A program made the translations under genes and the position numbers. Shown here one piece after another: positions 14,165 to 58,837 of a stretch of DNA of 64,000 bases. The notes below the pieces were generated by a model. The model was not told the DNA's origin and ran no database searches. It worked only from the letters and a program-made list of their open reading frames with translations. The stretch spans positions 86,986,001-87,050,000 of the forward strand of contig OX597820.1 in the NCBI GenBank assembly GCA_951406725.2, given 5' to 3'. This stretch comes from Octopus vulgaris. Lineage: Eukaryota. The stretch's first letter is position 1. The number at the start of each line of letters is the position of its first letter.

Positions 14165-14272
14165 TCACTTTCTCTCTCTCCCTCTTTCTCTCTCTCTCTC
14201 TCTCTCTCTCTCTATCTCTCTCTCTCTTCTCTCACTTTCTCTCACACACACACCATCTGGTTCTCTCTCGAC
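14165..14272 (-). CDS. elevenin: Probable terminal coding exon of elevenin precursor
   Basis: Acceptor ttatttcttgcag, phase 0. Reads VEREPDGVCVRESERREREIERERERERERGRERK*, running into a (GA)n repeat. AATAAA on the minus strand at 13991-13986. The four exons total 420 nt (139 aa plus stop). Confidence 0.55.
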   Translation of the reverse strand, partial: VEREPDGVCVRESERREREIERERERERERGRERK

Positions 14273-15375
14273 CTGCAAGAAATAACCATTAAATAACGGT
14301 GTTGAAAGTTGAAGGACACTAGATAATGCAGTCAATGTCCGAGCAAAAGACAAAAAGATTTACAGCTGGAAATTCTTTAACCATAGTCTTACTGGATCAG
14401 GTAACGATACATGAAGGTCATGTGCTCTCCATATTAAAGTTACGAATAAAAAAATGGAATAAATTTCTTTCTCGAGTCATACCAACTCATGAGAACCGAT
14501 TTCCCGGTTTCCATGGCGTATATGTTCCCCACCTGGACGGGATGCCGGTCCATCGCAGGATTACTCATTTTTGCCATCTGAGTCGTTCGGTCGTTCGGTC
14601 GAGGAATCGAAACTACAATCTTACGATCATGAGTCCAACACCCTAACCACTAAGCCACGTGCCCCCAAGGTTACGGGTGTTATGGACTAGTCCTTAGGTG
14701 TTATATGGAAAGGTGATATGTACGCCGGACTTCCTTAACACAAGTATATTTATAATAATGTGACTGTTTAGAATATGAACTTCTAATAATATCTTCATTG
14801 ATTGCCCGATGCACTTTCGACTGGATACAAATAGATACTCATTCAAATAGAAACAAATCGATACACGTTCAAATAAATACAGCTAGATGTTCATTCAAAG
14901 CTATTATCTACACTTCTTAAGTAATTAATCTGCCATTTAAACGTTGGTGTGACTGTTTATAGTTGTTGGCATAGAGAAGCAAGATTCACTGGTATACAGG
15001 GTAAAATAGTATCAGTAAATGTCACAGATATACAGTGCAAAATAGTAAAATATATCAGTGAGTATAAGTGATATACAAAGTAAAACAGTATCGTAAATGC
15101 ACGACGAAAGAGGTCGATGTGTATCACATACGTTCTTTTTTTCATTTGGACAATTTTTATCGATTCGGAAGGACGAAAGTGAAGTAGATTCGAGTAAGAT
15201 TTGAACACCAAACGTAAAACCCGTGAACGGTTAGCAAAAGGTATTGTCTTTTTTGTTCAACGCTCTCTCGATTCTGGCATCCACCCCGCAATAATGGAGT
15301 CTGCGCGTCTTAAAAAGTGAATCAGATGCGATTGCTGACGAAGAAAAGCAAAGTAAAGTGAGTGAAAAAGCATAC

Positions 15376-15484
15376 CTCATCTGAATAACTTCTGGTGTTA
15401 TAGTACGGGTCCCTGCCTTCTCCTTTGGAGAGGAGGTAATTAAGTAAGACATCTCGATCGCTGTGTTCAGAATTGCCAACATCT
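15376..15484 (-). CDS. elevenin: Elevenin precursor, coding exon 3 (C-terminal associated peptide)
   Basis: Long polypyrimidine tract ending ttctag and donor GAG|GTATGC. 109 nt, phase 2-0, compatible with exon 2. Reads DVGNSEHSDRDVLLNYLLSKGEGRDPYYNTRSYSDE. Confidence 0.78.
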
Positions 15485-15739
15485 CTAGAAATTTAGAAAA
15501 GAAAGAAAAGTAAAAAAAAAGAAAAACAAAGAAAAAATATATTACTGATCAAAGGAAATCTTGTTATAATAAAATAAAGATAATCAATTTAATAATAAAA
15601 ATATTACATTAATCCTCGGTAATTTATTTCTGTTTCTGTAGTGTTCAGTCAATGACAGAGAAAATAACCTTTCACATTGTAAAGTATGCGAAATTATCCC
15701 TGGGAACTTCCCTAGAAATCTTGGTGTCAGTTAATTTCA

Positions 15740-16440
15740 ACGATATACCCTCCAGCCTTCATCATGTGTCTTGGGGAAATTTCAAACCTGGGTTCTCATT
15801 CCTCAGGTATTTTTCGATATTATTATTATTATTATTATTATTCAGGTCACTGCCTGGAAACGAACTCGGAATCATGGGGTTAGTAGTCCGCGCTCATAAC
15901 CACTACGTGGGCAATTATGGTGTGAATTTTAGGGCTTATAAATCTAATATTTTCCTATTCTTCCTTAATACCGCTTCCCATATGCTGCTCATATCTGCAC
16001 TCGGTCTGCTTAGGAGGTTGTTGTGTCTTAGCATATGTGCTGCTTTTAGTTTTCGTATTTTTCAGTGGTATTCTGTCTATTATTTTAACTTCCTTCCACA
16101 GAGGGAGCAGGTATCCATTTCTCCATATATGATCAGCTATACCTGATTTATCAATACTTCATCGTGTCACAGCTTTGCGATGTTCGTCTACCCTTATTTT
16201 GAGGGGCGGCATGTTTCGCCCTTGTATAACCTACCACAGCTGCATAGGATGGAATACACGCAGTTTTTGGTCATATTCTCTTCTATTGGTGGTTTTATTC
16301 GAAGGAGATATTTGCGAAGTGTTGTATTAGTCTTGAATACCGTCCTGATGTCAAATGTAAATAATGCTAATAATGTACATAATTCCTCATCTCTTAAATA
16401 TAGAACTGTATATGTATAGAAATATTAAATTTCTAAATAT
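15740..16440 (-). mobile_element. Penelope-like element 3' part: GIY-YIG endonuclease remnant plus terminal repeat
   Basis: Minus-strand reading FDIRTVFKTNTTLRKYLLRIKPPIEENMTKNCVYSILCSCGRLYKGETCRP/KIRVDEHRKAV...SGIADHIW, with frameshifts and a stop. The downstream non-coding part is shared with 43410-43750. Confidence 0.85.
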
Positions 16441-57074: not shown

Positions 57075-58030
57075 ACTTCCCAGTTTGCTGTTAACTCGAC
57101 TTTTTAAGAACTTTTTCTTAAAATTAGGATGCTGGATCGTTATTGCAACATGGCTTGAGAATTTGAGCGTTGTTCTAAATGGAAGGCATAAATTCTACCA
57201 CCTAACAAAGTGGAAGCGGCCCAAAGCAATATGTAGTCGGGAGGGTTTATTAGAAGAGAAAGCAAAAGAAAAAGAGAGGTTGGAATATCCCAGTAGATGC
57301 AGTGGCTATTTTAGGCTACAAAGCTGGAGCCTGTGGCTGTTGTTGCGTCTGCTTCAGGCACATTACGGGTCTTATGTCTAAAAATACCCAAAGCTGAAGC
57401 AAATGAGATCGTCTTGTCTTGAGAGTTTCTAGTTGAAGGGTGCCAAAGGTCATATAGCGGCATCAAGAAATCTAGGTCTCTCCCCTTTAAGCATAAAACC
57501 GACCAAAGGCTTTAGGCAGCATCAACAGCAACGATTTTACTATTTTGTTACAGTAGGGCAGAGATATTTAAAAAGTTGGAAATCGTCGTAGAGAGTATAT
57601 AAAAAGAAACAAAAGGGGCAAATAAAAGAACGAATCCAGACTAAAAGCAGGAAAGAGTCTGGAAGTCCTTCAAGTAGAGGTTCTCTGAAAAAACCCACCG
57701 ATAACCTAAATGTCTGTTGAACGACCTGAAAGAAACAAAGATTAAGGAGATAGGACTGAATCTATAGACACTTAATTAATAGACTATTGTTAGACAGCCT
57801 GGATCTAACTTTCCAGGTGCCTAGCTACAGGCCCATCAACTATTTTGGTTAATTTTGGCTCTTGTCGCCGACTCGTAACCTCCTTAGAGCGATGTCAGTC
57901 ACCACACCAATTGCATATCAATAGCTAAACAGAGAAAATGACGCACAAGCCATCCCGCCTTAATCAACACCAACAATACTCACCGTATTAAGTTGCAATA
58001 CCGAGATTAAGACAGGGTGCTCAGGGTTGC
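57075..58030 (-). pseudogene. Decayed L1/Tx1 ORF2 (RT C-terminal region)
   Basis: YESATRAKIN...LGTWK resembles the Tx1/L1 motif YExASGAKINxxKS..LG.W. Many stops. Confidence 0.5.
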
Positions 58031-58149
58031 TCGGACGTACAGGCTGAGCAACACATACATGCATACATACCTACCTACCTACATACATGCATGCATACAT
58101 ACATACATACATGCATACATACATACATACATACATACATACATACATA

Positions 58150-58665
58150 CAAATTCCGCCGAGGTCGACTTTGCCTTTCATCCTTTCGGGGTCAATAAAT
58201 TAAGTACCAGTTACGCACTGGGGTCGATATAATCGACTTAATCTGCTTGTCTTTCCTTGTTTATCCTTTCTGTGTTTAGCCCCTTGTGGGTAGTATAGAA
58301 ATAGGTATTTCGTCTGCCGCTACGTTCTGAGTTCAAAATTTGCCGAGATTGACTTTGCCTTTCATCCTTTCGGGGTCGATAAATTAAGTATCAGTTACGC
58401 ACTGGGGGTCAAGGTAATCGACTTAATACCTTTATATGTCCTTGTTTGTCCCTTCTATGTTTAGCCCCTTGAGGGCAATAAAGAAATAAGAATCGTTAGC
58501 AGGCTGGACACAATGCTTTTCGGCATTTCCGTTGGCTTTACGTTCGGAGTTCAAATGCCACCACGGTCGACTTTGCTTTTCAACCTTTTGGGCTCAATAA
58601 AATAAGTGCCAGTCGAGCACTGGAGTCGATGTAATCGAATAGACCTTCACCCAAAAGTTTAGGCT
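58150..58665 (+). mobile_element. Tandem array of family B SINE units
   Basis: Three successive ACTTTGC.TTTCA.CCTTT.GGG.TC.ATAAA cores. Ends about 50 bp from the elevenin exon 1 donor. Confidence 0.85.
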
Positions 58666-58715
58666 GTATTGTTGTTGCTGTTATGTTAATGTAAATTTAA
58701 GAATATAATACATAC

Positions 58716-58837
58716 CGACAGTCTATTTTCCTCTTCATTCCTGGACTACTCTGTTCACTGATATGAACTGTGATGAGAAGGATTGCAATCGTCCATACCA
58801 AACACTTCTGGTATGTTTTGTTGCACAGTTGTAACAT
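58716..58837 (-). CDS. elevenin: Elevenin (L11) neuropeptide precursor, coding exon 1 (signal peptide, KR site, start of mature peptide)
   Basis: Translates MLQLCNKTYQKCLVWTIAILLITVHISEQSSPGMKRKIDC plus 2 nt (CG), then donor GTATGT. Hydrophobic core LVWTIAILLITVHI. Candidate acceptors just upstream (tttactatag, tttcattgcag) imply a non-coding 5' exon further upstream. Confidence 0.9.

What the first reader, a model, noticed from the sequence alone, without database searches (positions are those of the whole stretch)
14165..58837. Hidden elevenin neuropeptide gene: 420 coding nt spread over about 45 kb, with the disulfide loop split by a 22-kb intron
Seen: phase-compatible exons give signal peptide-SSPGM-KR-KIDCRKYIYAPRCRGVGA-KR-acidic tail. 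Known: the C-x8-C ring ending CRGVxA defines elevenin/L11 (Aplysia L11, cone-snail and insect elevenins), and insect elevenin signalling is linked to cuticle colour. No single ORF in the track shows the peptide, so pipelines could miss it. This mature peptide is strongly basic and has Tyr where Phe is typical. Any role in cephalopod pigmentation or venom gland is speculation.
Basis: partly seen in the sequence, partly recalled or inferred. Interest (0 to 1): 0.75.

Follow-up and report, generated by a model that had tools for sequence, protein, structure and literature searches.

The report
Known octopus elevenin neuropeptide gene

Summary
Real gene, already known. Four minus-strand coding exons (58837-58716, 36415-36335, 15484-15376, 11645-11631) give 327 nt and 108 aa, identical to a database protein named 'abdominal ganglion neuropeptide L11-like'. 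Its UniProt entry is listed in a published elevenin alignment (PMC9963005). The 58716-to-36415 junction stands in contigs of 4 of 4 probable RNA runs, so the 22.3-kb intron inside the Cys-x8-Cys ring is confirmed. An intron inside the peptide is a documented family trait. Tyr in the ring is unusual only among molluscs (0 of 8 listed; 15 of 44 family rows), and the basic charge is ordinary. An l11 gene is already mapped to octopus brain cell types (PMC9712504). I found no support for a venom or pigmentation role. One loose end: a database isoform with K42Y inside the ring equals a 4-nt shift of both splice sites, not seen in RNA contigs. The scan had no earlier elevenin note.

The parts
58716..58837 (-). 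First coding exon: ATG, predicted signal peptide, SSPGM spacer, KR (residues 35-36), start of the mature peptide K37-C40 and two bases of the Arg41 codon. The exon probably starts at 58864 (27 nt ahead of the ATG, behind TTGCAG).
   Evidence: its 3' end is the loose end of the exon-2 contigs in 4 of 4 runs; the 58864 acceptor is inferred from database models P0001 and P0004.
36416..58715 (-). Intron of 22,300 nt, phase 2, GTATGT..TTTCAG, inside the disulfide ring; about 11% tandem repeat, with transposon remnants.
36335..36415 (-). Second coding exon (81 nt): rest of the ring to Cys49, RGVGA, KR (residues 55-56), start of the C-terminal propeptide. Mature-peptide part: 36415-36376.
   Evidence: Covered edge to edge with 0 differences by one contig in 4 of 4 runs; single match in G000.
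15485..36334 (-). Intron of 20,850 nt, phase 2, GTAAGG..TTCTAG.
15376..15484 (-). Third coding exon (109 nt): C-terminal propeptide.
   Evidence: Covered with 0 differences by one contig in 4 of 4 runs; matches P0001-P0005.
11646..15375 (-). Intron of 3,730 nt, phase 0, GTATGC..TTTCAG.
11631..11645 (-). Coding part of the true last exon: PTRY and TGA stop.
   Evidence: Loose end after exon 3 maps here uniquely; gives the database C-terminus.
11394..11630 (-). Likely 3' untranslated region with an AATAAA at 11399-11394.
   Evidence: contigs run on 239-316 letters past exon 3 (record coordinates). Inferred: no reads were laid here and contigs cannot show an end.

Best explanation
This is the octopus elevenin (L11) precursor gene, four spliced coding exons giving a 108-residue protein that is likely cut at two Lys-Arg sites into one small peptide, predicted to be closed by a disulfide bond and to act on elevenin G-protein-coupled receptors as a neuronal signal. 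Shown here: exon structure, splice junctions, identity to the named database protein, Cys40-x8-Cys49 ring with the family's conserved residues, one detectable copy in the genome. Inferred from the family: signal-peptide removal near residue 27-30, convertase cleavage after KR35-36 and at KR55-56, trimming to a non-amidated 18-mer (K37-A54, calculated monoisotopic mass 2066.07 Da with the disulfide), release from central neurons and Gq-coupled receptor activation. The long introns are ordinary for this repeat-rich 2.8-Gb genome and have no evident function of their own.
For: Junctions in contigs of 4 of 4 probable RNA runs. CDS identical to P0003, named L11-like. All 7 positions listed as most conserved in PMC9963005 (Cys5, Ala11, Pro12, Cys14, Arg15, Gly16, Ala19) are present when counted from R36 (compared by eye). 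Of the 9 residues called conserved in Aplysia elevenin, 8 are identical and 1 is Phe to Tyr. In Aplysia the disulfide is required and three receptors respond at 1.2-25 nM through Gq (PMC10175484). Ortholog in Argonauta at 65% identity with the same ring. l11 is expressed in cholinergic subesophageal neurons and one optic-lobe cell type of O. vulgaris paralarvae (PMC9712504). One copy found by a protein search and two degenerate patterns; the 4 other pattern hits lack the acceptor, the first Cys or the dibasic site and are about as many as the reversed controls.
Against: No peptidomics, signal-peptide predictor or octopus receptor assay was available, so the mature form is a prediction. The N-terminal KR is absent in the Argonauta ortholog and K35-R36-K37 allows more than one cut, so a 17-mer, 19-mer or N-extended form is possible. 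The runs are only guessed to be RNA and carry no tissue label. That the l11 of PMC9712504 is this locus is inferred from name and single copy; its gene id was not found in the searchable supplements (one file unreadable).
Confidence: 0.93

Rival explanations
1. One reading: a hidden gene of 420 coding nt whose last exon is 14272-14165 and encodes a long acidic tail.
For: There is a TTGCAG acceptor at 14273 and an open phase-0 frame to a TGA at 14167-14165.
Against: 73% GA microsatellite. Contigs splice exon 3 to 11645. All 5 cluster proteins end in PTRY and the Argonauta ortholog ends at the same place. The gene is annotated.
Confidence: 0.02
2. The peptide has been recruited as a venom component, as elevenin-Vc1 in cone snails.
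For: Elevenin-like toxins exist in conoidean snails (PMC9963005, PMC13311285), and octopods have venom peptides that mimic neuropeptides (bioRxiv 10.64898/2026.02.02.703354).
Against: One detectable copy and near-complete conservation among Octopus entries (1 difference in 108 aa). The venom-gland preprint lists L11 among its peptide abbreviations but names only stanniocalcin, luqin, myosuppressin, tachykinin and neurotensin mimics (passages only). A 2026 review says elevenin toxins are known only from conoideans. Reported expression is neuronal.
Confidence: 0.03
3. The peptide is a controller of body colour in octopus, by analogy with planthopper cuticle melanisation.
For: Elevenin signalling suppresses melanisation in Nilaparvata (as summarised in PMC10175484 and PMC9963005); a squid paper speculates about melanin metabolism (PMC10172372).
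Against: No cephalopod data: 'elevenin' with 'chromatophore' gives 2 papers, neither on cephalopods by title (listing only). From general knowledge, fast cephalopod colour change is neuromuscular and chromatophore pigments are largely ommochromes, unlike the tyrosine-melanin cuticle pathway (recalled, not from a call).
Confidence: 0.06

Closest known systems
Octopus 'abdominal ganglion neuropeptide L11-like' (XP_036360741.1 / CAI9725929.1 = P0003; XP_029639375.2 / UniProt A0A6P7SM57 = P0001)
   Same: Identical over all 108 residues; P0001 adds 11 N-terminal residues from an upstream start.
   Different: Nothing in the coding sequence. O. bimaculoides XP_014769897.1 differs at 1 residue (I22L); model CAI9725930.1 differs at K42Y.
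Aplysia californica elevenin (L11) and receptors apElevR1-3 (PMC10175484)
   Same: Signal peptide, one Cys-x8-Cys peptide between basic sites, 8 of 9 conserved residues identical.
   Different: Tyr at the two ring positions where Aplysia has Phe; shorter precursor (108 against 151 aa); no octopus receptor test found.
Decapodiform elevenins (Idiosepius, Doryteuthis) and Lygus hesperus elevenin, as listed in supplement 1 of PMC10175484
   Same: Squid rings differ at 2 of 10 positions (both Phe/Tyr); the Lygus ring differs at 1 of 10 and has both tyrosines.
   Different: Squid entries end in VAA rather than VGA and are listed with longer N-terminal extensions.
Cone-snail elevenin-Vc1 (PMC9963005) and the Lautoconus elevenin gene
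   Same: Same cysteine spacing and conserved positions; the Lautoconus gene has two phase-2 introns, as the first two coding introns here.
   Different: Venom-gland product there; here one copy with neuronal expression reported, plus a third, phase-0 intron before the last four codons. Exact intron positions in Lautoconus were not compared.

Membership tests
Elevenin / L11 | Two cysteines with eight residues between them | tested here: met
   Cys40 and Cys49 in the RNA-supported CDS; definition from PMC10175484.
Elevenin / L11 | Conserved Asp before Cys1, Ala-Pro in the ring, Arg-Gly-Val after Cys2, terminal Ala | tested here: met
   7 of 7 positions of PMC9963005 and 8 of 9 of PMC10175484, the ninth Phe to Tyr (compared by eye).
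Elevenin / L11 | Precursor with a single peptide copy between basic cleavage sites, not amidated | tested here: met
   KR at 35-36 and 55-56, Ala before the second KR, one copy. Actual cleavage not shown.
Elevenin / L11 | N-terminal signal peptide | tested here: inconclusive
   Hydrophobic stretch at about residues 13-27 behind a basic N-region (9-residue hydropathy up to 2.8), conserved in Argonauta; no signal-peptide predictor was available.
Elevenin / L11 | Characteristic intron inside the peptide-coding sequence, phase 2 | tested here: met
   Phase-2 intron in the codon after Cys40; trait described in PMC4237046 and PMC6585902. Exact codon position in other species not compared.
Elevenin / L11 | Disulfide bond formed in the released peptide | not testable with these tools
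   Shown necessary in Aplysia; needs mass spectrometry here.
Elevenin / L11 | Activation of an elevenin-type GPCR | not testable with these tools
   Needs a receptor assay; receptor genes in G000 were not searched.
Venom-recruited elevenin (doppelganger toxin) | High, gland-specific expression of a separate, diverged copy | tested here: inconclusive
   No second copy found; tissue of the runs is not given.

The most novel reading that the evidence does not exclude
The intron inside the ring can slide by four bases at both ends (donor GTATTA, acceptor GAAG), so one gene makes two ligands that differ inside the disulfide ring (Lys42 or Tyr42): splice-site sliding as a way to retune a neuropeptide. 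A database model has exactly this form and the window's DNA reproduces it with GT..AG ends, but both shifted sites are weak and no contig in 4 runs showed it, so a gene-model artefact is far more likely.
Probability: 0.06. Interest if true: 0.5.

Novelty: already known. Interest (0 to 1): 0.12.

Why it matters
Little as a discovery: gene, family, intron trait and brain expression are on record. Its practical value is a corrected, RNA-supported exon map and a predicted mass for peptidomics. The open questions are modest: which N-terminal form is released, whether the two Phe-to-Tyr changes of Octopus matter for its receptors, what the l11-expressing subesophageal neurons do, and whether the K42Y splice form exists at all.

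Tried and rejected
A crude splice-site scan also offered 3438-3348 as a downstream exon; not supported by the contig junctions. Second elevenin copy in G000: none by protein search (1 candidate scored) or by two degenerate patterns (3 hits each, 1 of them this gene; reversed controls 2 and 3); the 4 other hits were inspected and lack elevenin context; a strongly diverged paralog could be missed, and a pattern that included the splice acceptor was not run. P0004 against G000 gave 3 weak hits elsewhere (E 0.8-4.3), not inspected. Word-based protein searches found only the Octopus cluster and the Argonauta ortholog; the profile search of cluster representatives was still queued when I stopped, so distant precursors were compared only through the published list. 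Pfam has no match to P0003 or P0006. The solved-structure search with exon 2 gave 0 hits (chains under 20 residues are not held). The language-model atlas gave only unrelated neuropeptide precursors at 0.89-0.91, which shows the general class and no family. No run is on record as RNA ('no RNA holder listed'); 16 holders are guessed RNA. RNA editing in exons 2 and 3: no differences in the contigs, but contigs drop rare variants. Earlier scan notes: none near this place, none with the word elevenin.

Full report
Setting. The window is G000:C7:86986001-87050000 in a 2.8-Gb genome of 227 contigs, 36% G+C, with 10.6% tandem repeat and about 16% interspersed repeat within the window. The database proteins that match it are labelled Octopus.

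Observation. A six-frame search finds SSPGM and KIDCR at 58750 and 58729 and the stretch from RKYIY to CRGV at 36417-36393, all on the minus strand. The exon with the ATG is 58837-58716, followed by GTATGT; the next is 36415-36335, preceded by a pyrimidine tract and CAG and followed by GTAAGG. A simple splice-site scan downstream returned 2 candidates, one of them 15484-15376.

Transcript evidence. A run search with 14000-15600 listed 24 runs; none is on record as RNA, 16 holders are guessed RNA. I laid 4 of them, from 4 studies. One contig per run covers 15376-15485 with 0 differences and a contig of the same length and depth covers 36335-36416 with 0 differences; the flanking intron DNA is not part of these contigs. 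In 4 of 4 runs the loose ends of exon 2 are the end of exon 1 and the start of exon 3. After exon 3, the loose end shown for X1 and X5 (not displayed for X6 and X10) matches the window once, at 11645-11624, with 0 matches in 100 shuffles. The last exon therefore begins at 11645 and adds PTRY and a stop.

Corrected gene. Coding exons 58837-58716, 36415-36335, 15484-15376 and 11645-11631; introns of 22,300 (phase 2), 20,850 (phase 2) and 3,730 nt (phase 0), all GT..AG; 327 nt, 108 aa, span 47,207 nt. The contigs run on 70 to about 1,190 letters upstream of the first coding exon (record coordinates), so there are further 5' exons. Database model P0004 places an 18-nt exon at C7:87095191-87095174 and another from C7:87103271, outside the window; that would make the locus about 106 kb. 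I did not check these with reads.

Identity. A search with exon 1 alone returned P0001, 'abdominal ganglion neuropeptide L11-like isoform X1'. Its cluster has 5 members; 3 carry the L11-like name, 2 are uncharacterised or hypothetical. The spliced CDS equals P0003 exactly, equals P0001 and P0004 apart from their N-terminal extensions, and differs from P0002 and P0005 at one residue each. UniProt A0A6P7SM57, the accession of P0001, is named in the legend of the elevenin alignment of PMC9963005. The gene is not hidden, although Pfam has no model that hits it. An Argonauta ortholog is 65% identical; it has HVF where Octopus has YIY and lacks the N-terminal KR.

Family comparison. Elevenins are defined by two cysteines with eight residues between them (PMC10175484). 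All 7 highly conserved positions of PMC9963005 are present, and 8 of the 9 conserved Aplysia residues are identical, the ninth being Phe to Tyr (compared by eye). In the 44 rows of supplement 1 of PMC10175484 (one species listed twice; counted by eye), Tyr stands five places after the first Cys in 15 rows and at both aromatic positions in 6; none of the 8 mollusc rows has it at the fifth place. The Lygus ring differs from the octopus ring at 1 of 10 positions, the two squid rings at 2 of 10. The predicted 18-mer has 5 K/R and 1 D, the same as the Capitella entry. So the tyrosines are a small lineage trait among molluscs and the charge is ordinary. [quoted passage not shown] Only the intron's length belongs to this genome, and the next intron is almost as long.

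Mechanism. Shown: spliced transcript, precursor layout, ring residues. Inferred from the family: entry into the secretory pathway by the hydrophobic segment at about residues 13-27, cuts at KR35-36 and KR55-56, a Cys40-Cys49 disulfide, and a non-amidated 18-mer of 2066.07 Da. Aplysia elevenin activates three receptors at 1.2-25 nM through Gq and needs its disulfide; replacing the ring Phe by Ala lowers potency 4- to 200-fold, so the Tyr here is probably a tolerated aromatic change. In O. vulgaris paralarvae l11 marks cholinergic subesophageal neurons, proposed to be the pedal-lobe giant cells, and names one optic-lobe cell type (PMC9712504). That this is the same locus is inferred from name and single copy. 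The best reading is a central neuromodulator.

Rivals. Venom: one detectable copy; a cephalopod venom-gland preprint lists L11 among its peptide abbreviations yet reports other mimics; a review limits elevenin toxins to conoidean snails. Pigmentation: only analogy with a planthopper and one speculation in a squid paper; the search 'elevenin' with 'chromatophore' gave 2 papers, neither on cephalopods by title. I found no paper testing octopus elevenin or its receptors in 5 searches; the library lacks most subscription journals.

Loose end. Model P0005 has K42Y inside the ring. Scanning donor and acceptor shifts of -12 to +12, only +4/+4 reproduces it, with GT..AG ends. Both sites are weak, either shift alone breaks the frame, and no contig showed the form (contigs drop rare variants). 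A gene-model artefact is likely; raw reads would settle it.

What I read. PMC10175484: abstract, sections 3, 5 and 7, passages and supplement 1. PMC9712504: passages, section 7 and a supplement search with no hit, one file unreadable. PMC9963005, PMC10172372, PMC6585902, PMC4237046, PMC13311285, PMC6425005 and bioRxiv 10.64898/2026.02.02.703354: passages only; the preprint's supplements were not seen and may bear on the venom question. The planthopper work was seen only as summarised in these papers.

Verdict. A real, expressed, already annotated elevenin gene; the family call is right, the last exon wrong, and the features offered as surprising are known or ordinary. Novelty: already known. 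Interest 0.12.

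Noticed in passing
window 58712-58715 and 36412-36415 (-): Shifting donor and acceptor of the ring intron by 4 nt each keeps GT..AG and the frame and gives K42Y, exactly database model P0005; not seen in contigs of 4 runs.
   Followed up: partly
G000:C7:87095174-87095191 and from 87103271 (-), beyond the window (L019, L020, L008): An 18-nt microexon with a strong donor and a further exon give the N-terminal extension of database model P0004, 50-58 kb upstream of the first coding exon. 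Probably 5' untranslated exons; not checked with reads.
   Followed up: partly
P0006 (Argonauta ortholog): Lacks the dibasic site before the peptide and has a Gly-rich end before the second KR, so N-terminal processing may differ among octopods.
   Followed up: no
window 4981-5490 (-) and 43855-44580 (+): Tc1/mariner-type transposase remnants (Pfam Transposase_1 E 1.7e-12; HTH and Tc3-type hits). 27536-27880 looks similar by eye but had no Pfam hit.
   Followed up: partly
window 47650-48111 (-) and 31614-32090 (-): Open frames that look by eye like fragments of a non-LTR retroelement; no Pfam hit.
   Followed up: no
window 14486-14669: Short interspersed repeat, SINE-like by eye, present in very many contigs of all 4 runs and repeated within the window; it explains most small-share hits of the run search.
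   Followed up: partly
PMC10172372 against supplement 1 of PMC10175484: The Todarodes elevenin-like ring differs clearly from the Doryteuthis and Idiosepius rings, which may mean two elevenin genes in squids; only one was found in G000.
   Followed up: partly
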